Numbered from the stretch's first letter, positions 13,772-43,707 are shown. The stretch is 64,000 nucleotides of DNA from Corallococcus sp. AS-1-6 (GCF_020037015.1 NZ_JAIQDE010000007.1:243886-307885); one strand, 5' to 3'. Notes: generated by a model not told the origin, from the letters alone. Program-made: numbers and translations.

Positions 13772-13901
13772 CCGGAAACTCCTGGCGTCGAAGTAGCCTG
13801 GGACTTACACGAGCCATTCCGTTGTCCGGGGGCCCTTGAACCGGGCCTGGAAACCAGCCGACACTTCCGGTTTGAGAACCGAGGGGGTCAGGGTGCGCAT
13901 G

Positions 13902-14255: not shown

Positions 14256-14277
14256 AGCCGCATCCGCCGCGGGAGGT

Positions 14278-14297
14278 GCCCGGCCAGCACGCCGGGC
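14278..14297. terminator. GC hairpin between convergent PilZ and GNAT genes
   Basis: gcccggc-cagcac-gccgggc forms a perfect 7-bp stem 23 nt after the PilZ stop. A possible outer ccgcg/cgcgg extension exists. Confidence 0.35.
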
Positions 14298-14315
14298 CCT
14301 CGCGGCACCCTGCCG

Positions 14316-14783: not shown

Positions 14784-14901
14784 GGTGCGGACGATGGGCT
14801 GGGACACGGAAGTTGGGATTCTAACGACTGGGCCGCCGGCCTCCAAAGAGGAACGGCGGCCCGGATGTCTTTCTGCGGTGGGGGCGGAACCGGCGCCGGC
14901 C

Positions 14902-15957: not shown

Positions 15958-15959
15958 GG

Positions 15960-16967
15960 TTACTTCTTCTCCGCGTAGATGTGGTCCCAGATGGAGTCGC
16001 CAGAGGGCTGCGGCTCGTCGCGCACGGTGCGCGCCGCGGCGGCCAGCTCCTCCGTGTAGCGGTTGCGCGCCTCGTCCATCTGCTTGCGGTCGAGGACGCC
16101 CTCCTGCTCCAGCCGCGCCTCGAACAGGCGCAGGCAGTCCTGCTCCTCGTTCACGAAGTTGGCGCCGGACGCGGACGAGTGCCCGTACAGGCGCGACACG
16201 CGCGCCTCGATGAAGTACGGCTTGCGCTCCTTGCGCACGTAGTCCATCGCGGCCTGGAGCTCCTGGTAGGACTCCACCGGATCATTGCCGTTGATGACCT
16301 TCGCCGGGATGTTGAAGGCGCGCGCGCGGTCCGCGATGTTCGTCTCGCCGTGCTGGCCGTCCGAGGTGGTGCTGATGCCCCACTTGTTGTTCGTGACGAT
16401 GATCAGGATGGGCAGCGGGTTCGCCGGGCGGCTGCTCCAGATGAGGCAACTGGCGAAATCGCCCTCGGCCGTCCCCGCGTCGCCGCCGGTGACGATGCTG
16501 ATGCCGTCGCCGCCGTGGCGCTTCTGGGCCATGGCCGTGCCCGGCGCGATGGCGTACTGCACCTCAATGGGGGAGGTGACGGGCGCGATGTTCTTCGAGC
16601 GCCGGCTGAAGTGGCCCGCGAAGTTGCGGCCGCCGGAGTAGGGGTCCGTGGCCGTGTTCTTCATCTGCCGCAGCGCCCCGATGGGCTCCTCGCCCATGGC
16701 GAGCAGCGTCGCGGACTGGCGGTAGTGCGCGTGCAGGTAGTCGTAGGCCGGGCCCTCGCCGACCTTCATCAGCATGCCCAGGGGGACGTTGAACGCCTCC
16801 TCACCGGGGCCGCCGATCCAGAAGTAGCCGTGGCCCTGCTTGTACATCTGGATCAGGCGCTCCTCCAGGACGCGCGCCTTCACCATCAGGTCATGGATGC
16901 GGATGAGCTGCTCTCGGGGCAGGGAGAGCGGCGCGGAGTTTTCTTTGATCAACCGGGGCCGTGACAC
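15960..16967 (-). CDS. 2-oxoisovalerate dehydrogenase E1 component, alpha subunit (TPP-dependent)
   Basis: The TPP-binding block is GDGGTAEGDF...NNKWGIST. The alpha-then-beta gene order matches bkd/esg-type loci. Confidence 0.9.
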   Translation of the reverse strand: MSRPRLIKENSAPLSLPREQLIRIHDLMVKARVLEERLIQMYKQGHGYFWIGGPGEEAFNVPLGMLMKVGEGPAYDYLHAHYRQSATLLAMGEEPIGALRQMKNTATDPYSGGRNFAGHFSRRSKNIAPVTSPIEVQYAIAPGTAMAQKRHGGDGISIVTGGDAGTAEGDFASCLIWSSRPANPLPILIIVTNNKWGISTTSDGQHGETNIADRARAFNIPAKVINGNDPVESYQELQAAMDYVRKERKPYFIEARVSRLYGHSSASGANFVNEEQDCLRLFEARLEQEGVLDRKQMDEARNRYTEELAAAARTVRDEPQPSGDSIWDHIYAEKK

Positions 16968-17296
16968 GGGCGGAGGACCTCGAAGGGAAAGAAAGGGACG
17001 CCCCTATACTCCGAACGCGGCCTCCCGGCTCAAGGACCTGTTGGCCGCCGTGTTCGCCAGCACCTTTCCGCCCCCGGGGTGGCGCGACGCGGCAATGAGC
17101 GGAACTCATCCATGCCCCGTGACGTGCTGTTCCAGGAGCGCTCCCGGTCCGGGTTGATCGCACGGCCGCTGGGGGACCGGCGGAGGGAGCACCCGCGAGG
17201 AATTGCCCGACAGGTGGACTCCTCGCGTCAATCAGGAAGTGCGATACAGTCCGCCCCGCCCCGACCGCGTTCGTCACGACGCGGGCTCCCCCAGGT

Positions 17297-30357: not shown

Positions 30358-30888
30358 ATGCGCAGACACCGCCGCATCATCGGAGTGTTCGGCTCCGGGG
30401 CGCACTCCCACGAGGAGTGGGTCGTCCCCCTGGCGCGGTGGATCGCGGAGGCCGGGTTCGACCTGCTCACCGGCGCGGGCGGCGGCGTCATGAGCGCGGC
30501 GGCGGGCGCCTTCGTCCAGGTGGAGGGGCGGCGGGGGGCGGCCATCGGCATCATCCCCGGCACGGTGGGCCCGGACGGCCGCTACCAGCCCCGGCCCGGC
30601 TACCCGAACACGGACATCGAGATCCCCATCTACACGCACCTGCCGCTCAGCGGAGAGCAGGGCACGGACCCCATGAGCCGCAACCACATCAACGTGCTGA
30701 CGCCGCACGCGCTGGTGGCGCTGCCCGGGGGCGCCGGCACTGCGGCGGAGGCCTCCCTGGCCTTGCGCTATGGCAAGCCGCTCATCCTGCACGGCCCAAC
30801 GGAGGTGTTCCGGCGCTTCCCGGCGGAGGCCGAGCGCACCACCTCCCTGGAGCGGGTGGCCGAGTTCCTCCTGGCCGCCACCCGGTAG
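30358..30888 (+). CDS. LOG-family / TIGR00725-like Rossmann-fold nucleotide-binding protein
   Basis: The N-terminus is IGVFGSG, followed by the GAGGGVMSAAAGA glycine-rich loop and PGGAGTAAE. GGGGAGGA sits 8 nt upstream of the ATG. Confidence 0.8.
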   Translation: MRRHRRIIGVFGSGAHSHEEWVVPLARWIAEAGFDLLTGAGGGVMSAAAGAFVQVEGRRGAAIGIIPGTVGPDGRYQPRPGYPNTDIEIPIYTHLPLSGEQGTDPMSRNHINVLTPHALVALPGGAGTAAEASLALRYGKPLILHGPTEVFRRFPAEAERTTSLERVAEFLLAATR

Positions 30889-31021
30889 GCGGCAGGCGGG
30901 CTGAAGCAGGGCCTGGCCGGGGGGAAGCCACCCCACGGGGTGGCAAAAGATTCTAGGATGGACGGCACGGGGAAGGGCGTGCACCGCGCGCGCACGCCCG
31001 GCACCCGTCACGTCCGCCATC

Positions 31022-31426
31022 ATGCTCATCAACCCCGACTATCCGCTGGCCAGTTGGTTCCTCGCGGTCTCCACCTCGGTCTTCCTGGTCGTCTACGCGC
31101 TGCCGCTGCTGTTCATCCCGCTGCGCTGGGCGCGCTGGTTCGGGTGGGAGCTGCCCACGGGCAACAACGACTTGACGGTCTACTTCGCGCGCTGCCTGGG
31201 CGGCCTGGCGCTGTCCGTCATCATCGCGGTGGTGCAGTTCATCCCGGACCCCAGGAGCCACCTGGTCATCTTCGAGCTCATCGGCCTCATCGGCGGCCTG
31301 ATGACGGCGGTGCACATCTGGGGCGCGCTGAAGAAGCAGCAGCCCTGGCTGGAGACGGCGGAGATCCCCCTCTACGGCGCCATGTGCCTGGGCGCCCTGT
31401 ACCTGCGCTACGCGCACCTGTCCTGA
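31022..31426 (+). CDS. small integral membrane protein (about 4 TM), function unknown
   Basis: The 134-aa ORF has hydrophobic segments, including LASWFLAVSTSVFLVVYALPLLFIPL, GGLALSVIIAVVQFI and VIFELIGLIGGLMTAV. It ends 19 bp before the cyclase gene. Confidence 0.5.
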   Translation: MLINPDYPLASWFLAVSTSVFLVVYALPLLFIPLRWARWFGWELPTGNNDLTVYFARCLGGLALSVIIAVVQFIPDPRSHLVIFELIGLIGGLMTAVHIWGALKKQQPWLETAEIPLYGAMCLGALYLRYAHLS

Positions 31427-31444
31427 GCGGAAAGCCCTTCAAGG

Positions 31445-34400
31445 ATGCCCTCCACGCAGCCCATTGATCCCGCTGTCGCGATGCTGGCGCCATACATGCC
31501 GGCGGCCATCCTCGCGCGGCTCGGGAGCCAGGAGGCGGACGCGCTGCCCCGGGCGGAAGGGGTGCGCGGCGCCATCCTGCTGCTGGACATCGCGGGCTTC
31601 ACGCCCATCGTGGTGGGGCTGAGCGGCGCGGGCCCGCGCGGCATCGACGCGCTCCAGCGCCTGCTGACGAACTACTACACGGAGATGATCGACGTGGTCC
31701 GCGACCACGGCGGGGACATCTACCAGTTCGCCGGTGACTCCATCCTCGCGTGCTTCGAGGCCGCGCCCGGGGAAGCGGACGCGGACGTCGTGCAGCGCGC
31801 GGCGGTGTGCGCGCTGGGCGTGCAGCGGCGGCTGGCGCGCTTCGCCCGGCTGGAGCTGCTGGGCCAGCGCTTCGGCGTGTCGTCGCGCATCGGCATCGGG
31901 TTCGGGGAGGCCACCCGCATCGTGATGGGCGCCACCGGCCTGTGGATGCACCCGGCGCTCGTGGGAGAGCCGCTGGCGCAGGCGGTGGGCGCGGAGAAGC
32001 AGGCCACGGTGTCGGAGGTCGTCCTGAGCCCGCGCGCCTGGGCGGCCCTGCCGGAGTCCGCGCGCAAGGGCGAGCCGCGCGAGGGCGGCAACCACCGGCT
32101 GGCGCTGGACGCGCCGGTGGAGTCGGTGAAGCGCCCGCTGCCCGCGCCCACGGGCGGCGCGGAGCTGGTGGGCCGGTGCGCGCTGCTGCTGCACCCGGTG
32201 CTCTTCACGAAGATCACCACCGCGCACCAGGAGTTCGCGGGCGACTTCCGCGACGTCACCTGCTTCTTCGTGCGCTTCACCCACGCGCAACCGGACGCGG
32301 ATCCGGACACCTTCACCCGCGACCTCAACGCCTACTACGAATATGTCCAGCGCGAGTCCGCCCACCACGGCGGCGTGCTGCTGATGACGGACTTCACGGA
32401 CAAGGGCAACGTGCTCTACGTCCTGTTCGGCGCGCCCACCGCCCAGCAGAACAAGGAGGTGCTGGCGTGCCGGCTGGCCTGCAAGCTGCTCAAGGCCCGC
32501 GAGCAGTTCCCCTTCCTGGACGAGCTGCAGATCGGCATCGCCACCGGCCACGCCTACTGCGGGGACATGGGCTCGCCCACGCGCAAGGGCTACTCGGCGC
32601 TGGGCGAGGTCGTGAACATGGCCGCGCGCCTGATGACGCACGGCGGACGCCAGGACGGCGTGCACCTGTGCGCCAACACCCAGGCGCGCTCGCAGCAGGG
32701 CGGCTTCGCCACCGAGTTCGTGGAGGACGCGAAGCTCAAGGGCGTCTCGCGCTCGGTGCCGGTGTACCGCCTGCTGGGAGAGACGCGCCGCGGCCTCTTC
32801 ATCAAGGGCCGGGGCGACATCATCGGCCGCAGCCGTGAGCTCAACGTGCTGCACGCGTCGCTCAACGCGGCCTTCGCCGGCCAGGGCCGCGTGTGCGTGG
32901 TGTCCGGAGAGGCGGGCATTGGCAAGTCGCGGCTGGGCGCGCGCGTGCTGGAGGACGCGGAGGAGGGCGGCGCCCGGGCGCTGTACGGCGTCTGCTACTC
33001 CTACGAGGCCTTCACCCCCTTCTTCCCCTGGAAGGAGGTCCTGCTCCAGGCGTTCGGCCTGCACGACTCGGACGACACCGACGCGCAGCTCGCGCGCCTG
33101 CGGCAGGGGCTGGAGGGACTGGAGGACGTGGGGCCGGAGTGGATCCCCGTGGTCGCGGGCATCCTCGGCATGTCGCTGGAGGAGACGTCCGCCACCGCCG
33201 GGATGGACGCGCGGCGCAAGCAGCAGAAGGTGTTCCAAATCGTCTTCCAGCTCCTGGAGAAGCTCAGCCGCGCGCAGCCGCTCCTGCTCTTCTTCGAGGA
33301 CCTGCACTGGGCGGACTACATCTCGTTGGACCTGCTCCAGTACCTGGCGGTGCGCGTGGGCTCGCACCGCATCATGGTGCTGGCGACCATGCGCCCGGGC
33401 GACCAGCTCCGCGGGCTGCGCGACCTGCCGGAGTTCATCCCGCTGGACCTGGTGAGCCTGGACGACGAGGACACGCGGGCGCTGTTGCGCGTGCACCTGC
33501 GCCTGTCGCCGCCGGACGTCGCGCTGGAGGACCGGCTGCTCGCGAAGGTGCAGGGCAACCCGTTCTTCATCGAGTCCATCGTGGAGGGCCTGGCGGAGCA
33601 GGGCTACCTGGGACCGGTGGAGCCCGGCTCGCCGCGCATGGAGTTGAAGCGCGGCCTGCAGGACCTGCTCCTGCCGGACTCCATCCAGGACGTGGTGCTG
33701 TCGCGCATCGACCTGCTCAGCGAGACGGAGAAGCTGGTGGTGAAGGTGGCGTCCGTCATCGGGCGCATCTTCACGCTGGACGCGGTGGCGGCGCTGGTGC
33801 CCACGCTGGGCCACGCCATGCTGCGCGAGGCCATGGACACGCTCCAGCGCCTGGGCCTCATCCTGCTGGAGACGGAGGAGCCGTACACCTGCCTCTTCAA
33901 GCACATCGTCATCCGCGACGTGGCCTACAACACGCTGCTGGTGTCCGCGCGCGAGGACCTGCACCGCCGGCTCGCGCGCTACCTGGAGGCCCGCGCCAAC
34001 GACAACCTCGCGGGCTCCGCGGGTCTGCTCGCGTTCCACTTCCTCGCGGGCAACGTGGAGGACAAGGGCCTGGAGTACACGCTGATGGCGGCCCGCAGCG
34101 CGCGGGCGCAGTACGCGAACGACGACGCGCTCTACCACTACAACCGGGGCCTGGAGCTGCTGGGCACCGTCGTGCCGGTGGACCCGGAGGCGACGCTGCT
34201 CCAGACGCGCCGGGTGATGCAGGAGCTGGCGGAGACGCTGCTCCAGGCGGGCGACTACGCCAACGCCATCCTGATGTTCGAGCAGTGCCTGGTGGACGAG
34301 GAGGAGCCTCCCCGCCAGGCGGAGCTGCACCTGGGCCTGGGCCGCGCGCACCAGGAGAAGGGCGAGTCCGCGCTCGCCACGCAGCACCTGGAGAAGTCGC

Positions 34401-35749
34401 TGGTGCTGCGGGGCCGCAGCCTCCCGGGGAACCTGGCCACGCTGGGCCTGCGCACGCTGGCGAACCTCCTGCTGCGGGGGCTCGCGTCGCTTTTGCCCTT
34501 CATCCTGCGCCCGCTGCCGGCGGCGCGGCTGGGCAACTACCTGCAGCAGTTGTCCACGCTCAACTCGCTCATCCGCATCTACTACTTCGCGGACATCACC
34601 AAGCTCACCTGGGCGACGCTGGTGTCCACCAACATGGCGGAGCGCTCGCGCAGCGACTACGCCAGGAGCCTGGCGCGCGGCTACTACGGCACGCTCCTGT
34701 TCGGCGCGGGGCTGCTCGGCCGCGCGCGCTACCACTGCGAGAAGGCGCTGGAGTACGCCCGGCGCTCCAAGGACCCCGTGGCGGAGGGGCTCGCGCTCAG
34801 CCGCCTGGGCATCCAGGCCTTCTTCGCCAACGAGCTGGAGCGCGCGAGAGAGTTCCAGGAGGAGGCCGTCTCCACGCTGCGCCAGGTGGGCGAGCGCTGG
34901 GAGCGCCAGACGTCGCTGATGATGCAGGCCACGGGCGAGTTCCTCCACTCGCGCTTCCGCGCCGCGGTGGCGCTCTACGAGCAGATGGGGGCCATCGGCG
35001 TGGAGCTCAACGCGCTGATGCACCAGGGCTGGGCGCACTCGTGGGCGCCCATGTGCCGCTACCTCATGGGCGAAGGCGACGTGGGCGAATTGTGCGCGGA
35101 GCTGGAGCAGGGCCTGCGCATCAGCGTGGAGGTGGCGGACCTGGCCAACCAGTGCGCCAGCCTGAACCACCTGGCCAACGTCACGGTGCGCGAGCACCAG
35201 GTGGAGGAGGCGGCGCTCGTCGCGGTGCGCTGCTTCAAGAGCATCTGGAGCTACCAGGTGATGGTGCCCTTCCTCCAGGTGGGGCTGGTGGACGCGGCGG
35301 AGGCGGCCCTCTTCGCGCTGGAGGAGGGCGCCACGGTGGTGCCGCGCAAGAAGCTGCTGAAGATCGTCAAGCTGGCGTGCATCAAGGCGCGCGTCATCGC
35401 CCGGCTCTATCCGTACCTGAAGGGCCCGGCGCTGCGCGTGACGGCGCGCTCGCTGGCCCTGCGCAAGGGGCCGAAGGCCGCGGAGCCGGTGTTCCTGGAG
35501 GCCATCGCCGTCCTGGAGCAGAGCCCCAACCGCTGGGAGACGGGCGTGGCCTACTTCGACGCGGCGGTGGCCCTGCCGCACCGGCGCGAGGACTTCCTCG
35601 CCCGGGCGCGCGCCATCTTCACGGAGGTGGAGGCCCGCGCGGAGCTGCGCCGCGTGGACCGCTTCCAGGCCACGCTCCAAGCCCCGCCGACCCCGGCGCT
35701 CGTCGCCGTGCCCCAGGCCTCCCAGGTCCGTGACGCTCGCGTGATGTGA
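31445..35749 (+). CDS. multidomain signalling protein with two class III adenylate/guanylate cyclase domains, a STAND/AAA(16) ATPase and TPR repeats
   Basis: Cyclase domain 1 has LLLDIAGFTPI and FAGDSILACF. Cyclase domain 2 has FFVRFTH, MTDFTDKGNVLYVLFGAP, GIATGHAYCGDMG and NMAARLM. Walker A is VSGEAGIGKSRL. The C-terminal half is TPR-like helical. Length is 1434 aa. Confidence 0.9.
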   Translation: MPSTQPIDPAVAMLAPYMPAAILARLGSQEADALPRAEGVRGAILLLDIAGFTPIVVGLSGAGPRGIDALQRLLTNYYTEMIDVVRDHGGDIYQFAGDSILACFEAAPGEADADVVQRAAVCALGVQRRLARFARLELLGQRFGVSSRIGIGFGEATRIVMGATGLWMHPALVGEPLAQAVGAEKQATVSEVVLSPRAWAALPESARKGEPREGGNHRLALDAPVESVKRPLPAPTGGAELVGRCALLLHPVLFTKITTAHQEFAGDFRDVTCFFVRFTHAQPDADPDTFTRDLNAYYEYVQRESAHHGGVLLMTDFTDKGNVLYVLFGAPTAQQNKEVLACRLACKLLKAREQFPFLDELQIGIATGHAYCGDMGSPTRKGYSALGEVVNMAARLMTHGGRQDGVHLCANTQARSQQGGFATEFVEDAKLKGVSRSVPVYRLLGETRRGLFIKGRGDIIGRSRELNVLHASLNAAFAGQGRVCVVSGEAGIGKSRLGARVLEDAEEGGARALYGVCYSYEAFTPFFPWKEVLLQAFGLHDSDDTDAQLARLRQGLEGLEDVGPEWIPVVAGILGMSLEETSATAGMDARRKQQKVFQIVFQLLEKLSRAQPLLLFFEDLHWADYISLDLLQYLAVRVGSHRIMVLATMRPGDQLRGLRDLPEFIPLDLVSLDDEDTRALLRVHLRLSPPDVALEDRLLAKVQGNPFFIESIVEGLAEQGYLGPVEPGSPRMELKRGLQDLLLPDSIQDVVLSRIDLLSETEKLVVKVASVIGRIFTLDAVAALVPTLGHAMLREAMDTLQRLGLILLETEEPYTCLFKHIVIRDVAYNTLLVSAREDLHRRLARYLEARANDNLAGSAGLLAFHFLAGNVEDKGLEYTLMAARSARAQYANDDALYHYNRGLELLGTVVPVDPEATLLQTRRVMQELAETLLQAGDYANAILMFEQCLVDEEEPPRQAELHLGLGRAHQEKGESALATQHLEKSLVLRGRSLPGNLATLGLRTLANLLLRGLASLLPFILRPLPAARLGNYLQQLSTLNSLIRIYYFADITKLTWATLVSTNMAERSRSDYARSLARGYYGTLLFGAGLLGRARYHCEKALEYARRSKDPVAEGLALSRLGIQAFFANELERAREFQEEAVSTLRQVGERWERQTSLMMQATGEFLHSRFRAAVALYEQMGAIGVELNALMHQGWAHSWAPMCRYLMGEGDVGELCAELEQGLRISVEVADLANQCASLNHLANVTVREHQVEEAALVAVRCFKSIWSYQVMVPFLQVGLVDAAEAALFALEEGATVVPRKKLLKIVKLACIKARVIARLYPYLKGPALRVTARSLALRKGPKAAEPVFLEAIAVLEQSPNRWETGVAYFDAAVALPHRREDFLARARAIFTEVEARAELRRVDRFQATLQAPPTPALVAVPQASQVRDARVM

Positions 35750-35829: not shown

Positions 35830-36660
35830 ATGAACACCGCGCCGCTCCGCTTCCAGCTCAGTCCCGTCATCGTCGTCTACATGCTCGTGGTCCACGGCCT
35901 GGCCGCGCTGGCGTTCATCCTGCCCTGGCCGCCGTACGCGCTGCCGGTGGCGCTGGCCGTGTACGTGTCCATTGGCCTGGGCACGACGGTGGGGCTGCAC
36001 CGGCTCTTGTGCCACCGCGCCTTCGCGTGCCCCCGCTGGGTGGAGTACGCGCTGGTGACGGTGGCCATGCTCACGGCGCAGGGCAGCCCGCTGCTCTGGG
36101 CCGCCAACCACCGGCTGCACCACGCGAAGGCGGACGCGGACGGGGACGTGCACTCGCCGGTGCGCGGCTTCTGGTACGCGCACATGGGGTGGATCCTCAA
36201 CGAGGCCTCCACGGAGGAGGACGGCTGGCGCACCTGGTGCCGCGACATGGCGGACGACGGCTACTACCACTGGCTCTTGCGCTACCGCATCGCGCCGCAG
36301 GTGCTGGCGGTGCTCTTCGTGGGGCTGACCTTCGGCTGGCGTACGGTGCCCGCGTACTTCTTCCTGCCCGTGGTGTGCTGGATGCAGAGCACCTACGCGG
36401 TGAACTCCGTGTGCCACGCCGCGTTCGGGCACCGCGACCACGACACGCGCGACCACAGCCGCAACGTGTGGTGGGTGAGCGTGCTCGCGCTGGGCGAGGG
36501 CTGGCACAACAACCACCACGCCTTCCCCGCGTCCGCGCGGCACGGCTGGGTGTGGTGGCAGTGGGACCCGGGCTGGCTCTTCATCCGGGCGCTCCAGGCG
36601 CTGGGGCTGGCGTGGGACGTGCGCCTGCCGTCCCGGCTCAGGTCAGGACCTGCGGCGTGA
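35830..36660 (+). CDS. membrane fatty-acid desaturase, stearoyl-CoA desaturase (SCD/Ole1/DesC)-like
   Basis: The three His boxes are HRLLCHR, NHRLHHAKADADGDVHSP and GEGWHNNHHAFPASARHG, the SCD-family pattern HRxxxH / HRxHH / HNxHH. Four TM segments are present. Confidence 0.85.
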   Translation: MNTAPLRFQLSPVIVVYMLVVHGLAALAFILPWPPYALPVALAVYVSIGLGTTVGLHRLLCHRAFACPRWVEYALVTVAMLTAQGSPLLWAANHRLHHAKADADGDVHSPVRGFWYAHMGWILNEASTEEDGWRTWCRDMADDGYYHWLLRYRIAPQVLAVLFVGLTFGWRTVPAYFFLPVVCWMQSTYAVNSVCHAAFGHRDHDTRDHSRNVWWVSVLALGEGWHNNHHAFPASARHGWVWWQWDPGWLFIRALQALGLAWDVRLPSRLRSGPAA

Positions 36661-38053
36661 GGCCCAGCGCGGGCATCCGCTCCGCGTCCCACGCCTCGAT
36701 GGCGTCCAGCCCCGCGATGTAGCGGCGCTCCGGGTTCTTCACCGGGTTGCGGATGCTGACGATCTCGGGCCCGGAGAAGAGGATGGTCTGCTTGTAGCGG
36801 GGCAGGTCGCTCATCATCAGCTTGGACGCGTAGTGCCGCGCGATGTTGGGCAGGCTGCCCAGCGTGCGGCACAGCCGCTGGAAGTGCTCCACCACCTCCG
36901 ACGCGTGCATCTGCTTGGGCCGGTGGCACAGCGTGTAGCCGTCGTAGTCGCGGCTGGTGGTGCCGGGCAGGAGCCGGTCCTCGGCCTTCAGTTCGCGGAA
37001 GAAGGGCGTCTCCGGATACGGGCACACGATGCCCAGGAACGTGACGGAGAAGTACTTCAGGTCCGCCAGGTAGTCCGGCAGCCGGTGCAGGTACTCGTTG
37101 GTGTCGCCGTCCGAGCCAACGATGAGCCCGAAGGACAGCAGGATGCCGGCGGAGAAGACGCGGCGGATGACGGCGTCCACCTCCGACAGCTTGTTCTGGC
37201 CCTTGTTCATCGCCTTGAGCGAGTCCGGGTTGAGCGACTCCAGGCCGGTGTAGACGTAGCGGCAGCCCGCCTTCGCCATCAGCTTCACCAGCGACTCGTC
37301 CTTGAGCACGTTGAAGGTGAGCGCGCAGCCCCACGTCTTCTTCAGGGGGATGAGCGCCTCGCACAGCGCGCGCAGGTACTTGGGCGAGCCGCCCAGGTTG
37401 TTGTCCAGGAAGACGAACGCGTCCCCCATCAGCCCCAGGAAGTTCGGGTTCCAGCGCATGCGCGTCTGGATTTCGTCGATGACCTCCGGGATGGGCCGGA
37501 AGCGGTAGCGCTCGTGGCCGGTGAGCACGCAGAAGTTGCACGTGAAGGGGCAGCCGCGCGACGCCTCGATGCCCGGCAGGCGCACCTTGTTGTGCGTGAA
37601 GTCGATGAGCTCGTAGCGGTACGGCCGGATGGCCGCGGCGCCCTGCGACGGCAGGCTGTAGCGGGGCTTGAGCTCACCCTTCTCGAAGTCCGCGATGAGC
37701 GCCGGCACGTTGGACTCCGGCTCCCCGGTGATGACCGCGTCGAAGTACTTCGCCGCGTCGTCCGGGAAGTGGCTCGCGTGCCGGCCTCCCGCCACCGTCG
37801 TCATTCCGCGCTGACGGAAGAGGGTGGAGAGCACCTTGGTGTGCTCGTAGTACGAGTGCAGGTACGAGAAGAAGACCAGGTCCCAGTGCCGGTCCAGCGG
37901 CAGGTCCGCCTCCTTCTCGTTGAAGATCTCCACCTCGGCGTGCTCCGGGCACAGGCCCGCGATGAGCTCCGGCACGGAGGACTGCATGATGGAGGGTTCC
38001 TTGATTCGCAGCCGGGTCGGATGGGTGTACGTGGCGATGATGGCGATGCGCAT
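36638..38053 (-). CDS. B12-binding-domain radical SAM enzyme
   Basis: The N-terminal B12-binding Rossmann start is MRIAIIATYTHP. The radical SAM cluster motif is GCPFTCNFC (CxxxCxxC). The start is ATG 38053. The ORF-track GTG at 38194 adds an implausible Arg/Pro-rich leader. The 3' end overlaps the desaturase 3' end by 23 bp. Confidence 0.85.
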   Translation of the reverse strand: MRIAIIATYTHPTRLRIKEPSIMQSSVPELIAGLCPEHAEVEIFNEKEADLPLDRHWDLVFFSYLHSYYEHTKVLSTLFRQRGMTTVAGGRHASHFPDDAAKYFDAVITGEPESNVPALIADFEKGELKPRYSLPSQGAAAIRPYRYELIDFTHNKVRLPGIEASRGCPFTCNFCVLTGHERYRFRPIPEVIDEIQTRMRWNPNFLGLMGDAFVFLDNNLGGSPKYLRALCEALIPLKKTWGCALTFNVLKDESLVKLMAKAGCRYVYTGLESLNPDSLKAMNKGQNKLSEVDAVIRRVFSAGILLSFGLIVGSDGDTNEYLHRLPDYLADLKYFSVTFLGIVCPYPETPFFRELKAEDRLLPGTTSRDYDGYTLCHRPKQMHASEVVEHFQRLCRTLGSLPNIARHYASKLMMSDLPRYKQTILFSGPEIVSIRNPVKNPERRYIAGLDAIEAWDAERMPALGLTPQVLT

Positions 38054-38274
38054 GCGAGCGGGCCCGGCGGCGCACGCGGCGGAAACGGGCGCGCGCGTTC
38101 GTGTTTTCACCTGCCGGACCGCGTCCCCCTTCGTCGGTGGAGGATCACCCGGAGTCCGGGCGGTGGCAAAGGATCTCCGTCGCGAACACCGCACGCTCCG
38201 CGTGTTTCCGGTGGCAGCGGACGACCCAGGAGGACCTATCTCGCGTGGGGGGCGTACTGATAGATCTTTGAAAC

Positions 38275-40062
38275 ATGGATACTTCTCCTTCGCCAGCCGC
38301 CCCGGGTTGGCCGTTTAAGCGTTACTTCTGGATTTCCATCGTGCTCGCGGTGGCGCTGGGCGCGACGGCGTTGCGCTCGGGGTTCATGCCGGATGACTTC
38401 ATCTGGCTGGGCGTCTGGGACAACATTCCGCCGCCCGCGCCGCTGGGCAACACGCACCTGGACGTGTACCGCACGGCCACCGGCATCCCGGAGCACACGC
38501 TGCGTCTGGCGGAGGTGGGCGTCTTCCCGTGGTGGGTGGAGCCCACCGTGCGCGTCGCGTTCTTCCGGCCCCTGGGCAGCCTGCTCTACGGACTGGACCA
38601 TGTGCTCTACAACCGCGTCGCCGTGGCCTACCAGTTCCACTCGCTGCTCTGGTACGTGGGCCTGGTGGCGGTGGCGGGCCTGCTGCTCAAGCGCGTGCTG
38701 CCCACGGCGGTGGCGGGCGTGGCGATGGTCCTCTTCGCCCTCTGGGGCTCCCACGCGGCGGTGCTGGGCTGGCTGTCCTACCGCAGCGTGGTGATGTCGC
38801 TGCTCTTCGGCATCCTCGGCATCTTCCTGCACGTGAAGTGGCGCGAGGAGAAGCGCACGGGCGCGCTGGTGGGCGCGCTGGTGTCCTTCGCGCTCGCGCT
38901 CCTCTGCGGTGAGACGATGGTCATCCTCAGCCCGTACGTGCTGGCCTACGAGGCCTTCTCCGGCCCGGGGCAGGCGAAGGACAAGCTCAAGGGGCTCATC
39001 CCGTTCGGCGTGCTGATGGCCCTCTACTTCGCGGCGTACCGGGCCATGGGCTACGGCGCGGGCGGCTCGGACATGTACCTGGACGCGCTGGGGACGCCGG
39101 TGGCGTGGTTCCAGGCGATGCTCGGGCGCGTGCCGGCCGCCATCGCGGGGCTGACGCTGAACGCACCGCCGGACTTCATCTTCGATCAATCCCTGGTGCC
39201 CCTCTTCACCGTCCTGGGCGCGGTGGGCTTCACGTTGTTCGCGCTGCTCGTGTGGGGCGTGTGGCCCCGGCTGGAGGCCGCGGAGAAGCGCACGGTGGGC
39301 TGGATGCTGACGGGCGCGTTCGTGTCCACGTGGCTGTCCAACTCCGCCTTCGCCGGCTCGCGCACGCTCATCGTGCCCAGCCTGGGCATGGCGGTGGGTT
39401 TGGCCGTGGTGCTGCGCCACGCGTGGAAGGGGCGGGCGCTCAAGCTCCGCGCGGGCGCGGTGGTGGCCGGCGCGGCGGTGATGGCCCTCATCCACGTCGT
39501 GGGCTCGCCGTACCTCTGGTGGCAGACCATGGAGCAGTACTCGCAGGCGGACGCGCTCATGGGGCGCGTGCAGGCGCGCTACGAGGAGGCGTTCGATCAG
39601 ACGAAGCTCCCCAACCAGCGCGTGGTGGTGCTCAACGCCCCCAACGGCATCATCGGCATCTACGGCTCCGTGCGCTGGTGGTCCTCGGGCAACCCCCTGC
39701 CGAAGGCCTGGTGGGTGCTGTCCTATTCGCTCCACGAGCAGAAGGTGACGCGCACCGGCCCCAACTCGCTGGAGCTGGCGCTCACCCGGGGCGGCCACTT
39801 CCTGGACTCCGTGGAGGAGCGCATCCACCGCGCCGCGCGCCACCCGGTGCGCCAGGGCGACGAGTTCGACATGAAGGGCATGAAGGTGCGGATCGAGGAG
39901 GCGGACGCGCAGGGCCCCACGCGCATCTCCTACACCTTCGACGTGCCGCTGGAGGACCCGTCGCTGAAGCTGGTCCAGTGGCAGAACAAGAAGGTGGTGC
40001 CCTGGGTGCCGCCGGCCGTGGGCGGGCCGCCGTCCGCCCTCAACGTCCGGGCCGTGCAGTAG
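38275..40062 (+). CDS. large polytopic membrane protein (about 12 TM) with C-terminal soluble domain; GT-C-like glycosyl/lipid transferase candidate
   Basis: The 595-aa ORF has many hydrophobic helices and an acidic first loop (FMPDDFIWLGVWDN). The C-terminal 170 aa or so are hydrophilic. Confidence 0.7.
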   Translation: MDTSPSPAAPGWPFKRYFWISIVLAVALGATALRSGFMPDDFIWLGVWDNIPPPAPLGNTHLDVYRTATGIPEHTLRLAEVGVFPWWVEPTVRVAFFRPLGSLLYGLDHVLYNRVAVAYQFHSLLWYVGLVAVAGLLLKRVLPTAVAGVAMVLFALWGSHAAVLGWLSYRSVVMSLLFGILGIFLHVKWREEKRTGALVGALVSFALALLCGETMVILSPYVLAYEAFSGPGQAKDKLKGLIPFGVLMALYFAAYRAMGYGAGGSDMYLDALGTPVAWFQAMLGRVPAAIAGLTLNAPPDFIFDQSLVPLFTVLGAVGFTLFALLVWGVWPRLEAAEKRTVGWMLTGAFVSTWLSNSAFAGSRTLIVPSLGMAVGLAVVLRHAWKGRALKLRAGAVVAGAAVMALIHVVGSPYLWWQTMEQYSQADALMGRVQARYEEAFDQTKLPNQRVVVLNAPNGIIGIYGSVRWWSSGNPLPKAWWVLSYSLHEQKVTRTGPNSLELALTRGGHFLDSVEERIHRAARHPVRQGDEFDMKGMKVRIEEADAQGPTRISYTFDVPLEDPSLKLVQWQNKKVVPWVPPAVGGPPSALNVRAVQ

Positions 40063-40108: not shown

Positions 40109-41134
40109 TCAGCCCACCATCCGCACCACCGCCAGCGTGAGTCCGTAGACGATGACGGACACCAGCGCGGCGGCGGGGATGGTGAACACCCACGCCCAGA
40201 TGATGCGGCCGGCGGTGCCCCACTTCACGGCCCGCCAGCCGCGCGTGGACCCCACGCCGACGATGGCGCCGGTGATGGTGTGCGTGGTGGAGACGGGGAT
40301 GCCCAGCTCCGCCAGCGCGATGATGGTGACGCCGCCGCCCGTCTCCGCGCTGAAGCCGCCAATGGGCGCCAGCTTCGTGAGGCTGTGGCCCATGGTGCGG
40401 ATGATGCGCCAGCCGCCGAAGAAGGTGCCCAGCGCGATGGCGGCGTGGCAGGAGATGATCATCCACCAGTCGATGTGGAACGGCCGGTCGCGCCAGATGG
40501 TGCCGAAGAGCACCACCGCGATGATGCCCATGACCTTCTGCGCGTCGTTGGTGCCGTGGCTGAAGGAGAAGATGGCGGACGACACCAACTGCAGCCGGCG
40601 GAACCAGGTGTCCACGCGCAGCGGCGTCTGACGGTGCACCGCCCAGGTGCTGGCCAGCATCATCCCGATGCCCAGCGTCATGCCGATGAGCGGCGACAGC
40701 ACGATGAAGGCCGCGATGCGCGCGATGCCGCTGCCCACCAGGCCCTCGAAGCCCAGCACGGGGAGCGTGGCGCCAATCATCCCGCCCGCCAGCGCGTGCG
40801 ACGACGACGAGGGCAGCCCCCACCACCAGGTGAGCAGGTTCCAGACGATGGCGCCCATCAGCGACGAGAAGATGACCATCAGCACCGCGGTGGGGCCGGC
40901 GGCGCGGAGCATCTCGAAGTTGATGATGCCCTTGCCCATGGTGTTGGCCACGTGCACGCCGCCCGCGAAGGCCGCCACGAAGTTGAAGAACGCGGCCCAC
41001 GCCACGGCCAGGTTCGGCGACAGCACGCGCGTGGACACCACGGTGGCGATGGAGTTCGCCGCGTCGTGGAAGCCGTTGATGAAATCGAAGATGAGCGCGA
41101 CGACGACGATGGTGACGACCGCTGCGAGCAGCAT
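40109..41134 (-). CDS. pitA: inorganic phosphate transporter, PiT family
   Basis: PiT signature blocks are FINGFHDAANSIATVVST and the repeat block FSHGTNDAQKVMGII. It has 10 or more TM segments. Confidence 0.9.
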   Translation of the reverse strand: MLLAAVVTIVVVALIFDFINGFHDAANSIATVVSTRVLSPNLAVAWAAFFNFVAAFAGGVHVANTMGKGIINFEMLRAAGPTAVLMVIFSSLMGAIVWNLLTWWWGLPSSSSHALAGGMIGATLPVLGFEGLVGSGIARIAAFIVLSPLIGMTLGIGMMLASTWAVHRQTPLRVDTWFRRLQLVSSAIFSFSHGTNDAQKVMGIIAVVLFGTIWRDRPFHIDWWMIISCHAAIALGTFFGGWRIIRTMGHSLTKLAPIGGFSAETGGGVTIIALAELGIPVSTTHTITGAIVGVGSTRGWRAVKWGTAGRIIWAWVFTIPAAALVSVIVYGLTLAVVRMVG

Positions 41135-41135
41135 C

Positions 41136-41762
41136 TCAGCTATGCTCCAGCACGACGCCTTCGATGACGTTGGCCACGCCCTGGCACTTGTCCGTGGCCG
41201 TCTCGATGAGGTCGTAGATCTCCTTCCACTTGATGATGGTCAGGGTGTCCACGCCGCTCTTGAACAGCCGGCCCATGCCCGCGCGCAGGACCTCGTCCGC
41301 CTGGGTCTCCAGGTGCTTGATCTCCTTGCACCCCGCGAGGATCTGCTCCGGCTTCTTGATGAGCCGCAGCGCCGCGACGACCTCCTGCACCTTGCGCGTG
41401 GAGAGCACCAGCAGCCGCGCCAGCTCCGTGGCGTCCTCGCGGCTGGACTCAATCTCGTAGTAGAGCAGCCGCGCCGCCGCCGCGTTGGTCAGGTCCAGCA
41501 CGTCGTCGATGCGCGACAGGAGCGTGTGGATCTGACCCCGGTCGAACGGGGTGATGAACTGCTGGTGGAGCCGGTTGAAGGCCGTGTGGGTGACCTCGTC
41601 GCCCCGGTGCTCCACGTCCTTGAGGGCCTGGACTCGCGCGGGCACGTCCCGGAAGTCGCTCAAGAGTTCGTGCAGGAGCTTCGCTCCCTCGACAGTTCTG
41701 GCGCATTGCGCGTCGAAGTCGTCGAAGAACTCGTCCGACTTCGGCATCAGCTTTTCGAGCAT
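41136..41762 (-). CDS. DUF47 / PhoU-like TIGR00153-family protein, the usual PiT partner
   Basis: It is a 208-aa helical protein. Its stop lies 1 bp from the PiT start. This gene pairing is widespread. Confidence 0.85.
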   Translation of the reverse strand: MLEKLMPKSDEFFDDFDAQCARTVEGAKLLHELLSDFRDVPARVQALKDVEHRGDEVTHTAFNRLHQQFITPFDRGQIHTLLSRIDDVLDLTNAAAARLLYYEIESSREDATELARLLVLSTRKVQEVVAALRLIKKPEQILAGCKEIKHLETQADEVLRAGMGRLFKSGVDTLTIIKWKEIYDLIETATDKCQGVANVIEGVVLEHS

Positions 41763-41940: not shown

Positions 41941-42603
41941 TCAGACGACGCGGTTGCGCAGCTCCTCGAAGAATCCCACCCACAACTGCCACATCTCCTC
42001 GGCGCCGCGCGTGATGGTGGCCAGCTCCGCGTCCGTGTACTGGAGGCCCACCGTGTGGCCGGCCGTCTCCACGTGGTCCGGCTCCTGCTTCACGTGGATG
42101 TCCACCCAGGGCAGGGCCTTGAGGCCCGTGGTGCGGCGCACCAGCTTGCCCAGCTTGGCCACCATGGTGAGGTCCGCCACCTCCGTGCCGTAGAGGAAGC
42201 CCAGGCCCGTGAGGTGGCTGTCCGTGGAGCGCTGGTAACCGTCGATGAGCCGGCGCGTCGCGGGCGTCATGTCCGCCTCGGACACGCCCGCCTTCGTGAA
42301 GCCCGCGTCCGTCATCGTCTGGATGAAGAAGCGCTCGTGCGCCCTCGCCGGGTCTCCCTCGCCCACCTCCTGGTTGAGGATGTGCGTCACCGCCGTCTTC
42401 ATCTCCATCTGCGGACAGACGGCGATGAGCTTGCCCAGGAAGGTGGGGAAGTAGTGCAGGGGGTGCCACCACTGACCCAGCACCATCTCCGCCTGTTCGC
42501 GGCTGAAGGCCTTCTCATCCACCACCTCGAAGAACCGGTGCTTGATCAACTGCTCTCGGTGGGAGTTCTTCGCCAGTGCCGCCTCGATGGTCTGGTTCCG
42601 CAT
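41941..42603 (-). CDS. iron-containing redox enzyme of the haem-oxygenase-like fold (CADD/PqqC/TenA-like di-metal oxidase family)
   Basis: Two E...H metal-ligand blocks are ILNQEVGEGDPARAHERFF and VKQEPDHVETAGH. It has about 220 aa and an all-helical composition. GGAGG sits 5 nt upstream of the ATG. Confidence 0.8.
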   Translation of the reverse strand: MRNQTIEAALAKNSHREQLIKHRFFEVVDEKAFSREQAEMVLGQWWHPLHYFPTFLGKLIAVCPQMEMKTAVTHILNQEVGEGDPARAHERFFIQTMTDAGFTKAGVSEADMTPATRRLIDGYQRSTDSHLTGLGFLYGTEVADLTMVAKLGKLVRRTTGLKALPWVDIHVKQEPDHVETAGHTVGLQYTDAELATITRGAEEMWQLWVGFFEELRNRVV

Positions 42604-42822: not shown

Positions 42823-43707
42823 ATGACCCTGTTCCGGCACCCTGAAGATCGCATCCCGGTCCTGATGTTCCTTGGCGTCTTCGCGCTCGACATGACGGTG
42901 TTCCTCACGGCGCGAAGCTGGTGGGTACCGGTGCTGTGGTTCGGGCTGGGCATCATCCCCAAGGGGTGGATCTGCTCGTGGAACCACCACCACCAGCACC
43001 TGTCCTTCTTCAAGCACGCGCTGCCCAACCGGCTCCTGGAGATCGTCTTCGGCTTCCAGACGGGCGTGACGTCGCAGGCGTGGTTCCTCCACCACGTGCT
43101 GGGCCACCACAAGAACTACCTGGACCAGTCGCAGGACGAGTCGCGCTGGAAGCGGGAGGACGGCTCGACGATGGGCGAGGTGGAGTACTCGCTGGGCACG
43201 GCGCTGACCGCCTACCCGCGCGCGTTCCAGGTGGGCCGGAAGCACCACCCCAAGGCGCTGCGCACGTTCGTGGTGATGGCCGCGCTCCAGGTGGTGCTGC
43301 TGGCGGGCCTGTTCTGGGTGAACCCCTACAACGCGCTCTTCGTGTTCCTGCTGCCCATGATGGCGTCGCTCTACGTGACGACCTGGGCCACGTACTTCCA
43401 CCACGTGGGCCTGGACACGGCGAACCACTCGGAGGCCTCGTACAACATCCTCCACAAGGGCTACAACCTGATGACGGGCAACCTGGGCTACCACACCGCG
43501 CATCACACGCGGCACGGCCTGCACTGGTCCAAGCTGCCGGAGCTGCACGCGCAGTTGGCGCGCGACATCCCCGCGAACCTGTACCGCCAGCCGGGCATCC
43601 CGTTCGTCTGGCGCGGCTCCGAGGAGAAGCTGGTGCTGAGCGAGCACGAGGTCGCCGCACTCACCGGCGGGCCCGTGGAGGGCCGCGGGGAGAAGCTGGC
43701 CGCCTAG
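42823..43707 (+). CDS. membrane fatty-acid desaturase / hydroxylase-family di-iron enzyme
   Basis: His boxes are WNHHHQH, HHVLGHH and HTAHHTRH, with a further FHHVG. Four TM segments are present. The start is ATG 42823. The 607-aa ORF in the track is artefactual upstream of this. Confidence 0.8.
   Translation: MTLFRHPEDRIPVLMFLGVFALDMTVFLTARSWWVPVLWFGLGIIPKGWICSWNHHHQHLSFFKHALPNRLLEIVFGFQTGVTSQAWFLHHVLGHHKNYLDQSQDESRWKREDGSTMGEVEYSLGTALTAYPRAFQVGRKHHPKALRTFVVMAALQVVLLAGLFWVNPYNALFVFLLPMMASLYVTTWATYFHHVGLDTANHSEASYNILHKGYNLMTGNLGYHTAHHTRHGLHWSKLPELHAQLARDIPANLYRQPGIPFVWRGSEEKLVLSEHEVAALTGGPVEGRGEKLAA

What the first reader, a model, noticed from the sequence alone, without database searches (positions are those of the whole stretch)
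35830..40062. SCD-like desaturase, B12-binding radical SAM enzyme and large GT-C-like membrane protein form a compact, overlapping lipid-modification neighbourhood
The SCD-type desaturase (HRLLCHR / HRLHH / HNNHH) and the B12-binding radical SAM gene are convergent, and their 3' ends overlap by 23 bp (36638-36660). The radical SAM gene is divergent from a 595-aa, roughly 12-TM protein with an acidic first periplasmic loop and a C-terminal soluble domain. B12-radical SAM enzymes typically methylate or cross-link unactivated carbons, for example in hopanoid methylation and tetraether/ring formation in membrane lipids. Next to a desaturase and a polytopic transferase-like protein, this suggests production of an unusual methylated or otherwise modified membrane lipid or glycolipid. 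The window also carries two further desaturases and the bkd E1 genes, so it is strongly lipid-themed. I do not recognise a characterised pathway with this gene set.
Basis: partly seen in the sequence, partly recalled or inferred. Interest (0 to 1): 0.6.

Follow-up and report, generated by a model that had tools for sequence, protein, structure and literature searches.

The report
Conserved radical SAM–desaturase lipid pair
An uncharacterised, unusually conserved radical SAM enzyme sits beside a fatty-acid desaturase in both myxobacteria and soil Acidobacteria, which suggests an unknown membrane-lipid modification, while the large glycosyltransferase-like membrane protein next to it is only a local neighbour.

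Summary
They are an SCD-type desaturase (35830-36660, +), a radical SAM protein (36638-38053, −) and a 595-aa GT-C-fold membrane protein (38275-40062, +). The 23-bp convergent overlap is also real.

Only part of the "three-gene lipid neighbourhood" survives comparison with relatives. The GT-C gene is next to the radical SAM gene only in Corallococcus. Its homologues elsewhere sit in unrelated contexts.

The desaturase–radical SAM link recurs in four different gene arrangements across Myxococcota and Pyrinomonadaceae (Acidobacteriota). In Pyrinomonadaceae a fatty-acid 2-hydroxylase-like gene lies between the two.

The radical SAM protein belongs to a tight clade that is 70–75% identical across the two phyla, with the next relatives at ≤41%. 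It fits no curated family. Its B12-type domain is degenerate, and its best structural match is the cobalamin-free enzyme AprD4.

Its most widespread neighbour is a cyclase- or kinase-AAA-TPR signalling protein.

My best reading is acyl-chain tailoring of a membrane lipid, with the chemistry unresolved. I found no published work on this clade.

The parts
36638..38053 (-). Radical SAM enzyme (471 aa) with class-B-type architecture: an N-terminal Rossmann (B12-like) domain, a radical SAM barrel and a helical C-terminal domain. This is the core of the conserved module.
   Evidence: PF04055 at 58 bits, B12-binding at 19.2 bits (below the 32.1 cut-off). C168/C172/C175 are invariant. No NCBIfam family is reached. 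Orthologues are 70-75% identical across two phyla, and the next relatives are at most 41% identical. The AF2 model has pLDDT 92.4, and its best structural match is AprD4 6fd2 (TM 0.67-0.70).
35830..36660 (+). SCD-type (stearoyl-CoA-desaturase-like) membrane acyl desaturase, 276 aa. It is a recurrent partner of the radical SAM gene.
   Evidence: His boxes HRLLCHR, HRLHH and HNNHH. PF00487 at 64.9 bits. SCD1 4ymk at 8.7e-28. Orthologues at 55% identity or more lie next to the radical SAM gene in four arrangements. The orthologue set covers the same two phyla.
36638..36660 (.). 23-bp overlap of the convergent 3' ends of the desaturase and radical SAM genes.
   Evidence: Both stop codons were read directly. 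The overlap is present only in L004-L009; other Corallococcus have short gaps. It is incidental, not a conserved feature.
31445..35749 (+). STAND-type signalling protein (two cyclase-homology regions, AAA_16 and TPR; 1434 aa), directly upstream of the desaturase. It is the most widely conserved neighbour of the radical SAM gene and a putative regulator.
   Evidence: Pfam Guanylate_cyc, AAA_16 and TPR. PycC-like cyclase hits at residues 43-208 and 346-396. A homologue is adjacent in 47 of 89 radical SAM loci. The N-terminus is a Ser/Thr kinase instead in distant Myxococcota and Acidobacteria.
30358..31426 (+). A SLOG/LOG-like gene (30358-30888) and a 134-aa gene with no family match (31022-31426). 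They head the co-directional string SLOG, 134 aa, STAND, desaturase.
   Evidence: PF18306 at 2.9e-24. Both are conserved next to the STAND gene and the radical SAM gene throughout Cystobacterineae.
38275..40062 (+). GT-C-fold polytopic membrane protein (595 aa), a putative polyprenyl-phosphate-sugar-dependent glycosyltransferase. It is a local neighbour, not part of the conserved module.
38054..38274 (.). 221-bp divergent intergenic region between the radical SAM and GT-C genes.
   Evidence: No sigma-70-like promoter, riboswitch or other Rfam match was found.

Best explanation
The conserved unit is the radical SAM enzyme together with the SCD-type desaturase. In Pyrinomonadaceae a fatty-acid 2-hydroxylase-like enzyme joins them. 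A STAND-type cyclase or kinase signalling protein probably controls the unit. The GT-C protein is not part of it.

I propose that the radical SAM enzyme tailors the acyl (or alkyl) chain of a membrane lipid. It would reductively cleave SAM at its CxxxCxxC [4Fe-4S] cluster (the cluster motif is shown; the cleavage is inferred). The resulting 5'-deoxyadenosyl radical would abstract a hydrogen from an unactivated chain carbon (inferred). The membrane-bound di-iron desaturase, and the hydroxylase where present, would introduce a double bond or hydroxyl on the same lipid (inferred from gene linkage).

What follows hydrogen abstraction is unresolved. It could be cobalamin-mediated C-methylation, the commonest class-B outcome. 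It could also be a cobalamin-free rearrangement, dehydration or desaturation, as in AprD4 or the archaeal enzyme Ted. The degenerate B12 domain and the AprD4-like fold make the second option at least as likely as methylation.
For: (1) Linkage. The desaturase orthologue (55% identity or more) is adjacent in 11/11 Corallococcus, 1/1 Citreicoccus, 7/8 Archangium, 1/3 Hyalangium and 12/34 acidobacterial loci. It lies about 5.5 kb away in L077 and L084. These are four distinct arrangements, so proximity was kept through rearrangements.
(2) Hydroxylase. A FA_hydroxylase gene whose best solved relative is yeast ceramide fatty-acid 2-hydroxylase Scs7p (2e-13) lies immediately upstream of the radical SAM gene in 25/34 acidobacterial loci. 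In L001 and L055 its stop overlaps the radical SAM start.
(3) Control. None of 80 loci with generic SCD-like desaturases (38-46% identity) carries this radical SAM.
(4) Paralogous pairings. A second B12-radical SAM lies beside a second SCD-like desaturase in L072, and a similar pair occurs in L160.
(5) Phyletic pattern. The radical SAM and desaturase orthologue sets share the same unusual distribution, Myxococcota plus Pyrinomonadaceae. Seven contig lengths recur in both top-120 hit lists, which suggests shared contigs; this is my own reading of those two tables.
(6) Relatives. The best NCBIfam hit is a ladderane-lipid family, with HpnJ fourth, all far below cut-off. One relative at 34% identity is fused to a PLD/cardiolipin-synthase-like domain.
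(7) Precedent. B12-type radical SAM enzymes methylate, cyclise and desaturate lipid tails (bioRxiv 10.1101/2025.10.20.683597).
Against: There are no lipid data and no experiments. Myxococcus, Pyxidicoccus and Stigmatella keep the radical SAM gene without an adjacent desaturase (0/12 Myxococcus-type loci including one Pyxidicoccus-labelled record, and 0/2 Stigmatella). No orthologue labelled Myxococcus or Stigmatella appears among the top 120 desaturase hits, so the enzyme does not need this desaturase. Its most widespread neighbours are signalling proteins (STAND cyclase or kinase, and a cNMP-binding CPBP protease), not lipid enzymes. About 73% identity across phyla is unusually high for a lipid-tailoring enzyme, although horizontal transfer may explain part of it. 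All similarity to lipid radical SAM families is far below curated cut-offs. Fusions among distant relatives are heterogeneous: PLD, GNAT and STAS. The second-best structural match, MgmA, modifies a protein.
Confidence: 0.45

Rival explanations
1. First reader's model. The desaturase, radical SAM enzyme and GT-C protein form one pathway that makes a methylated or otherwise modified glycolipid.
For: The three genes are tightly packed in Corallococcus. The 595-aa protein has a GT-C fold with an invariant DD pair in loop 1.
Against: The GT-C gene is adjacent in 10/11 Corallococcus loci and in 0/78 others. Homologues in Citreicoccus (63% identity), Archangium minus (48%) and a metagenome (27%) have no radical SAM or desaturase within 6 kb. 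The family has only 33 members. It diverges far faster than its neighbours: 64-92% identity within Corallococcus, against 92-98% for the radical SAM.
Confidence: 0.05
2. The radical SAM enzyme acts on a non-lipid substrate, either a protein or a small signalling or cofactor-type molecule, as the output or partner of the adjacent STAND cyclase/kinase and CPBP protease. The desaturase and hydroxylase are merely co-regulated membrane-adaptation genes.
For: A STAND AAA_16-TPR protein is adjacent in 47/89 loci, across Cystobacterineae, distant Myxococcota and Acidobacteria. Orthologous CPBP/Rce1-like proteases, often with a cNMP-binding domain, lie alongside in 8 distinct loci (10 records, two of them duplicates). 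About 73% identity across phyla is typical of enzymes that act on conserved macromolecules. MgmA, a protein glutamine methylase, is the second-best structural match.
Against: No precursor-peptide-like ORF, transporter or RiPP recognition element is conserved nearby. RiPP radical SAM families score far below cut-off. The hydroxylase-radical SAM start/stop overlap and the four separate desaturase arrangements are hard to explain by co-regulation alone. There are no PADLOC defence hits for the radical SAM.
Confidence: 0.25
3. The radical SAM enzyme is an oxygen-independent counterpart of the neighbouring O2-dependent di-iron enzymes. It would desaturate (or hydroxylate through a hydration step) the same lipid when oxygen is scarce, by analogy with BchE versus AcsF or with the archaeal desaturase Ted.
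For: A B12-type radical SAM lipid desaturase exists (Ted). BchE is among the best NCBIfam hits. A truncated globin lies directly upstream in L088. Myxococcus keeps the radical SAM gene without the desaturase, as expected if the two can substitute for each other.
Against: In Pyrinomonadaceae the three genes are co-directional and partly overlapping, so they are probably co-expressed rather than used alternately. The carriers are described as aerobes (my own background knowledge, not tested). The BchE score is 66 bits against a cut-off of 481.
Confidence: 0.1

Closest known systems
AprD4 (radical SAM 1,2-diol dehydratase of apramycin biosynthesis; PDB 6fd2)
   Same: It is the best sequence hit (1.9e-11) and the best structural hit (TM 0.67-0.70, aligned across both chains). 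Both have an N-terminal Rossmann domain resembling a B12-binding domain, a radical SAM barrel and a C-terminal helical domain.
   Different: Identity is only 18-19%. The NF033070 score is 44 bits against a cut-off of 500. AprD4 acts on an aminoglycoside within an antibiotic gene cluster. This clade is core-like, with desaturase, hydroxylase and STAND neighbours.
Cobalamin-dependent (class B) radical SAM enzymes that tailor lipids: HpnP/HpnR hopanoid methylases, HpnJ, the ladderane-associated family TIGR04072, archaeal GrsA, GDGT methylases and Ted
   Same: They share the domain architecture, and all act on unactivated carbons of lipid tails. TIGR04072, BchE and HpnJ are among the top NCBIfam hits.
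   Different: All scores are far below curated cut-offs: 68/360, 66/481, 65/578 and 38/650. The B12 domain of this clade is degenerate (19-27 bits against 32.1), whereas more distant relatives score 36-46 bits. Pairing with an SCD-type desaturase has not been described for any of these, to my knowledge.
Stearoyl-CoA desaturase (SCD1, PDB 4ymk) and bacterial acyl-CoA/acyl-lipid front-end desaturases
   Same: The window desaturase has the same three histidine boxes and aligns with SCD1 over its full length at 8.7e-28.
   Different: The NCBIfam DesA-family equivalog is not reached (96 bits against 400). Regiospecificity and substrate are unknown. The orthologue clade is restricted to Myxococcota and Pyrinomonadaceae.
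GT-C glycosyltransferases (STT3/AglB/PglB, PMT, ArnT, ALG, Aft/Emb)
   Different: No Pfam or NCBIfam sequence family matches. The family is tiny, evolves fast and has no conserved gene partners.

Membership tests
Radical SAM superfamily (PF04055) | A CxxxCxxC motif that ligates the [4Fe-4S] cluster within a partial TIM barrel | tested here: met
   C168-x3-C172-x2-C175 is invariant in 50 sequences. PF04055 scores 58.2 bits against a cut-off of 29.5. The barrel is modelled at pLDDT 92.
Class B (cobalamin-dependent) radical SAM | An N-terminal Rossmann-type cobalamin-binding domain preceding the radical SAM barrel | tested here: inconclusive
   The fold and architecture match TsrM, OxsB, TokK, CysS and MgmA. 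However, PF02310 scores 19.2 bits, below the 32.1 cut-off, and the top structural match, AprD4, is described as cobalamin-free (my own recollection of the AprD4 structure paper).
Class B (cobalamin-dependent) radical SAM | Actual binding of cobalamin and methyl transfer (SAH formed together with 5'-deoxyadenosine) | not testable with these tools
   This needs purified, reconstituted protein. No cobalamin riboswitch lies nearby.
Named lipid or tetrapyrrole B12-radical SAM equivalogs (TIGR04072 ladderane, BchE, HpnJ, HpnR) | Score at or above the NCBIfam curated cut-off | tested here: not met
   Scores are 67.7/360, 66.4/481, 64.7/578 and 38.1/650. The nearest out-clade relatives also fall short.
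RiPP-maturase radical SAMs (ApyD, rSAM_ocin_1, CUAEP) | Score at or above the curated cut-off, plus an adjacent precursor peptide | tested here: not met
   Scores are 46/750, 43/282 and 32/500. No conserved small ORF or transporter lies in the neighbourhoods examined.
SCD-type membrane fatty-acid desaturase (PF00487) | Three histidine boxes (HxxxxH, HxxHH, HxxHH) in a four-transmembrane-helix protein | tested here: met
   HRLLCHR, HRLHH and HNNHH are present. PF00487 scores 64.9 bits against 29.7. SCD1 matches at 8.7e-28 over residues 12-268.
GT-C glycosyltransferase superfamily | The GT-C transmembrane fold | tested here: met
GT-C glycosyltransferase superfamily | Conserved acidic residue(s) in the first extracytoplasmic loop | tested here: met
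   D40 and D41 are invariant in 28 homologues. They lie just after transmembrane helix 1 (H14-34) in the model.
GT-C glycosyltransferase superfamily | Membership of a sequence family (GT39/PMT, GT83/ArnT, PMT_2, DUF2079 and related) | tested here: not met
   No Pfam or NCBIfam hit at E ≤ 0.01. Only a UniRef label, 'RgtA/B/C/D-like domain', appears on some homologues.
Three-gene functional cluster (desaturase + radical SAM + GT-C) | Conserved synteny of all three genes in relatives | tested here: not met
   The desaturase-radical SAM pairing is conserved across two phyla. The GT-C gene is adjacent only in Corallococcus.

The most novel reading that the evidence does not exclude
The radical SAM clade is a bacterial lipid C-H-functionalising enzyme that operates in aerobes. 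In Pyrinomonadaceae and Bryobacteraceae it could be the missing enzyme for iso-diabolic-acid or brGDGT-type chemistry, meaning tail-to-tail coupling or mid-chain methylation of iso-C15 chains. No mss homologue exists in Acidobacteria (PMC13159169). The gene would have been acquired from Myxococcota, which share the iso-C15 and ether-lipid background.
Probability: 0.05. Interest if true: 0.85.

Novelty: new variant of a known kind. Interest (0 to 1): 0.45.

Why it matters
Myxobacteria and Acidobacteria are major soil bacteria with unusual iso-branched, ether and, in Acidobacteria, membrane-spanning lipids. Those lipids underpin widely used palaeoclimate proxies, yet several of the enzymes that make them are unknown. 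This is a sharply delimited, extremely conserved radical SAM clade with no assigned function. It is genetically tied to a desaturase, a fatty-acid 2-hydroxylase-like enzyme and a cyclase/kinase STAND regulator. It is present in the genetically tractable Myxococcus xanthus, so a knock-out followed by lipidomics would be a direct test. If the enzyme proves to be cobalamin-free, it would also add a second reaction type to the small AprD4-like branch of class-B-like radical SAM enzymes.

Tried and rejected
- **Curated classification of the radical SAM.** Nothing reaches a cut-off, either for it or for its nearest out-clade relatives.
- **Sequence search against solved structures.** Only AprD4, TsrM, MgmA and a fragment matched. 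No tetraether-synthase-type hit appeared at E ≤ 0.01.
- **GT-C as part of the module.** Rejected on synteny and on the unrelated contexts of its homologues.
- **Anti-phage defence reading of STAND plus radical SAM.** PADLOC gives nothing for the radical SAM and only generic cyclase similarity for the STAND protein.
- **Cobalamin riboswitch or other RNA element, promoter and terminator scans.** Nothing significant.
- **Literature.** Searches by topic, by M. xanthus locus tags near esg, and by protein accessions found no paper on this clade.
- **Reciprocal synteny test via a metagenome scan with the desaturase profile.** I used these as a negative control instead.
- **Domain fusions in relatives at about 33% identity.** They are heterogeneous (PLD, GNAT, STAS) and so only weakly informative.
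- **AFDB fold library.** Unavailable.
- **The 23-bp overlap as a regulatory feature.** Rejected because it is not conserved within the genus.

Full report
**Source and gene calls**

The window matches Corallococcus coralloides KYC2213 (NZ_CP172866.1) at 100% identity over the radical SAM gene. G+C is about 70%.

A GC3 filter picks out the three genes of the finding, with third-position G+C of 0.93-0.97:
- 35830-36660 (+), 276 aa
- 36638-38194 (−) as an ORF
- 38275-40062 (+), 595 aa

Alignment with 11 orthologues shows that the radical SAM protein starts at the Met at 38053 (MRIAII…) and is 471 aa long. Both stop codons lie within 36638-36660, so the 23-bp convergent overlap is real. The radical SAM and 595-aa genes diverge from a 221-bp spacer. 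That spacer holds no recognisable promoter, riboswitch or other Rfam element.

**The three proteins**

It matches PF00487 at 64.9 bits. It aligns end to end with mouse SCD1 (4ymk, 8.7e-28). It does not reach the NCBIfam DesA equivalog (96 bits against 400).

*Radical SAM protein.*
- It has CPFTCNFC and matches PF04055 at 58 bits. Its B12-binding score is only 19.2 bits against a gathering score of 32.1.
- It reaches no NCBIfam family. The best scores are ladderane TIGR04072 68/360, BchE 66/481, HpnJ 65/578, AprD4 44/500 and HpnR 38/650, and the RiPP families score lower still.
- An AlphaFold model (pLDDT 92.4) has the class-B architecture.
- The best structural match is AprD4 (TM 0.67-0.70). 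MgmA, TsrM, OxsB, CysS and TokK follow.

*595-aa protein.* It has no Pfam or NCBIfam hit. Its model (pLDDT 89.8) is clearly GT-C:
- Foldseek gives probability 1.0 to AglB, ArnT, STT3 and PglB.
- D40 and D41 in the first loop are invariant.

**The radical SAM clade**

Orthologues are 70-75% identical between Corallococcus and Pyrinomonadaceae or Bryobacteraceae (Acidobacteriota). An exhaustive search of 1.84 billion cluster representatives shows one full-length relative at 60% identity. After that comes a gap to ≤41%, followed by a broad family at about 30-36%. None of the out-clade relatives I sampled belongs to a curated family. Several of them score above the Pfam B12 cut-off (36-46 bits), whereas this clade and its closest relatives score 19-27 bits. 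The B12-type domain therefore looks degenerate here.

A neighbour-joining tree, without bootstrap support, places the acidobacterial sequences as one clade sister to Cystobacterineae, with Sorangium and other Myxococcota branching earlier. That points to horizontal transfer from Myxococcota into Pyrinomonadaceae. Transfer would explain part of the high cross-phylum identity.

**Synteny test**

I fetched 80 genome loci and 9 metagenome or genome loci around orthologues, then located each window gene in them with tblastn.

| Neighbour of the radical SAM gene | Where it is adjacent |
|---|---|
| GT-C gene (with the PHO4, PhoU-like, haem-oxygenase-like and M28 genes) | 10/11 Corallococcus loci; none of the other 78 |
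| Desaturase orthologue (≥55% identity), convergent downstream | 11/11 Corallococcus; Citreicoccus |
| Desaturase orthologue, 66-90 bp upstream on the same strand | 7/8 Archangium; Hyalangium versicolor |
| Desaturase orthologue, upstream with a hydroxylase in between | 12/34 acidobacterial loci |
| Desaturase orthologue, about 5.5 kb away, separated by CPBP and STAND genes | L077; L084/L085 |
| FA_hydroxylase | 25/34 acidobacterial loci, immediately upstream |

GT-C homologues in Citreicoccus (63% identity), Archangium minus (48%) and a metagenome (27%) lie in unrelated contexts. Within Corallococcus the GT-C gene is 64-92% identical, while its neighbours are 92-98% identical.

The best solved relative of the acidobacterial hydroxylase is yeast ceramide fatty-acid 2-hydroxylase Scs7p (2e-13). 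Its stop overlaps the radical SAM start in L001 and L055.

Two further observations bear on specificity:
- In L072 a second B12-radical SAM paralogue lies next to a second SCD-like desaturase.
- As a control, I examined 80 metagenomic loci with generic SCD-like desaturases (38-46% identity, 721 kb in total). None contains this radical SAM, and only one contains a distant B12-radical SAM.

The desaturase orthologue set has the same odd distribution as the radical SAM: Corallococcus, Citreicoccus, Pyxidicoccus xibeiensis, Archangium, Sorangium, Minicystis and Pyrinomonadaceae. No hit labelled Myxococcus or Stigmatella appears in the top 120. Those genera keep the radical SAM gene without an adjacent desaturase.

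**Other conserved neighbours**

The most widespread neighbour is a large STAND protein with AAA_16 and TPR domains, present in 47/89 loci.
- In Cystobacterineae it has two cyclase-homology regions and is preceded by a SLOG/LOG-like gene and a gene of about 134 aa.
- In distant Myxococcota and in a second acidobacterial subclade it has a Ser/Thr kinase instead. One further locus, L060, carries a kinase-TPR protein without AAA_16 in the same upstream position.

Orthologous CPBP/Rce1-like proteases, often with a cNMP-binding domain, accompany it in 8 distinct loci, including Sorangium. In the window the desaturase is the last gene of the co-directional string SLOG, 134 aa, STAND, desaturase.

**Interpretation**

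The evidence supports a functional link between the radical SAM enzyme and acyl-chain-modifying di-iron enzymes. The lipid reading is therefore the best available, and I put it at about 0.45.

The chemistry is open. Methylation is the commonest class-B outcome. However, the degenerate B12 domain and the AprD4-like fold allow a cobalamin-free reaction, and a B12-type radical SAM lipid desaturase (Ted) has recently been described.

The main rival, at about 0.25, is a non-lipid substrate tied to the STAND/CPBP signalling partners. The reasons are that these are the most widespread neighbours, that the enzyme persists without the desaturase, and that its conservation is extreme.

The three-gene glycolipid model is essentially refuted for the GT-C component.

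One speculative reading remains possible. Acidobacteria lack mss homologues yet make iso-diabolic acid (PMC13159169), so this clade could supply related chemistry in Pyrinomonadaceae. Two points weigh against it: the clade's apparent origin in Myxococcota, and the lack of any evidence for it in other producer lineages. I put this reading at about 0.05.

**Literature**

Topic, locus-tag and accession searches found no study of this clade. NCBI names it only "B12-binding domain-containing radical SAM protein".

**Verdict**

- The radical SAM belongs to an uncharacterised, sharply bounded clade within a known enzyme class, with a gene partnership not previously described.
- It is testable in M. 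xanthus.

Noticed in passing
window 42823-43707 (+) and 41941-42603 (-): A second membrane fatty-acid desaturase (PF00487 3.4e-29, GC3 0.97; boxes HHHQH, HHVLGHH, HTAHH) lies divergent from a Haem_oxygenas_2 'iron-containing redox enzyme' gene. This pair belongs to the Corallococcus-specific block beside the GT-C gene.
   Followed up: partly
window 30358-35749 (+): The string SLOG/LOG-like, 134-aa unknown, double-cyclase/AAA_16/TPR STAND is conserved next to the radical SAM gene in all Cystobacterineae examined. Other lineages carry a Ser/Thr-kinase-AAA_16-TPR version plus a cNMP-binding CPBP protease. This looks like a conserved signalling partnership of unknown meaning.
   Followed up: partly
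window 38275-40062; loci L006, L009, L062: The GT-C gene is only 64-65% identical in C. carmarthensis, C. aberystwythensis and C. praedator, while its flanking genes are 92-98% identical. This is a hypervariable gene in a conserved frame, suggesting allelic replacement or diversifying selection on a surface-glycan function.
   Followed up: no
radical SAM orthologues, loci L001-L089: A neighbour-joining tree places all acidobacterial radical SAMs as one clade sister to Cystobacterineae and inside Myxococcota diversity. This suggests horizontal transfer into Pyrinomonadaceae. The acidobacterial sequences split into a hydroxylase/desaturase-linked subclade and a kinase/second-radical-SAM-linked subclade.
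   Followed up: partly
L072 7462-9999 (-); L160 2231-5536: Independent pairings of a different B12-radical SAM (about 25% identical, with a true B12-binding domain scoring 59 bits in L072) with a different SCD-like desaturase. This hints that radical SAM plus desaturase pairing is a more general theme.
   Followed up: partly
L022 (BNCN01000007.1) and L070 (CAYHHL010000068.1): Two public records appear taxonomically mislabelled. L022 ('Comamonas sp. KCTC 72670') carries the Myxococcus-type gene order with a radical SAM 86% identical to the window's. L070 ('uncultured Enterobacteriaceae bacterium') carries the kinase-STAND/CPBP arrangement seen in other Myxococcota, with a 72% identical radical SAM.
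   Followed up: no
window 40109-41762 (-): A PHO4-family phosphate transporter (PF01384 5e-94) and a PhoU_div/DUF47 gene form a pair convergent on the GT-C gene. This is an ordinary Pit-type phosphate uptake module.
   Followed up: no
window 13797-17003: A PilZ-domain gene (13797-14255, +) lies near bkd-type E1 beta (14902-15957, -) and E1 alpha (15960-17003, -) genes. From my own background knowledge, these E1 genes may correspond to the esg locus that supplies iso-fatty-acid primers in M. xanthus; this was not tested.
   Followed up: no
P0165, P0196, P0184 (radical SAM relatives at about 33% identity): Distant relatives carry C-terminal fusions to a PLD/cardiolipin-synthase-like domain, a GNAT acetyltransferase and a STAS domain respectively. 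The wider family appears functionally diverse.
   Followed up: partly
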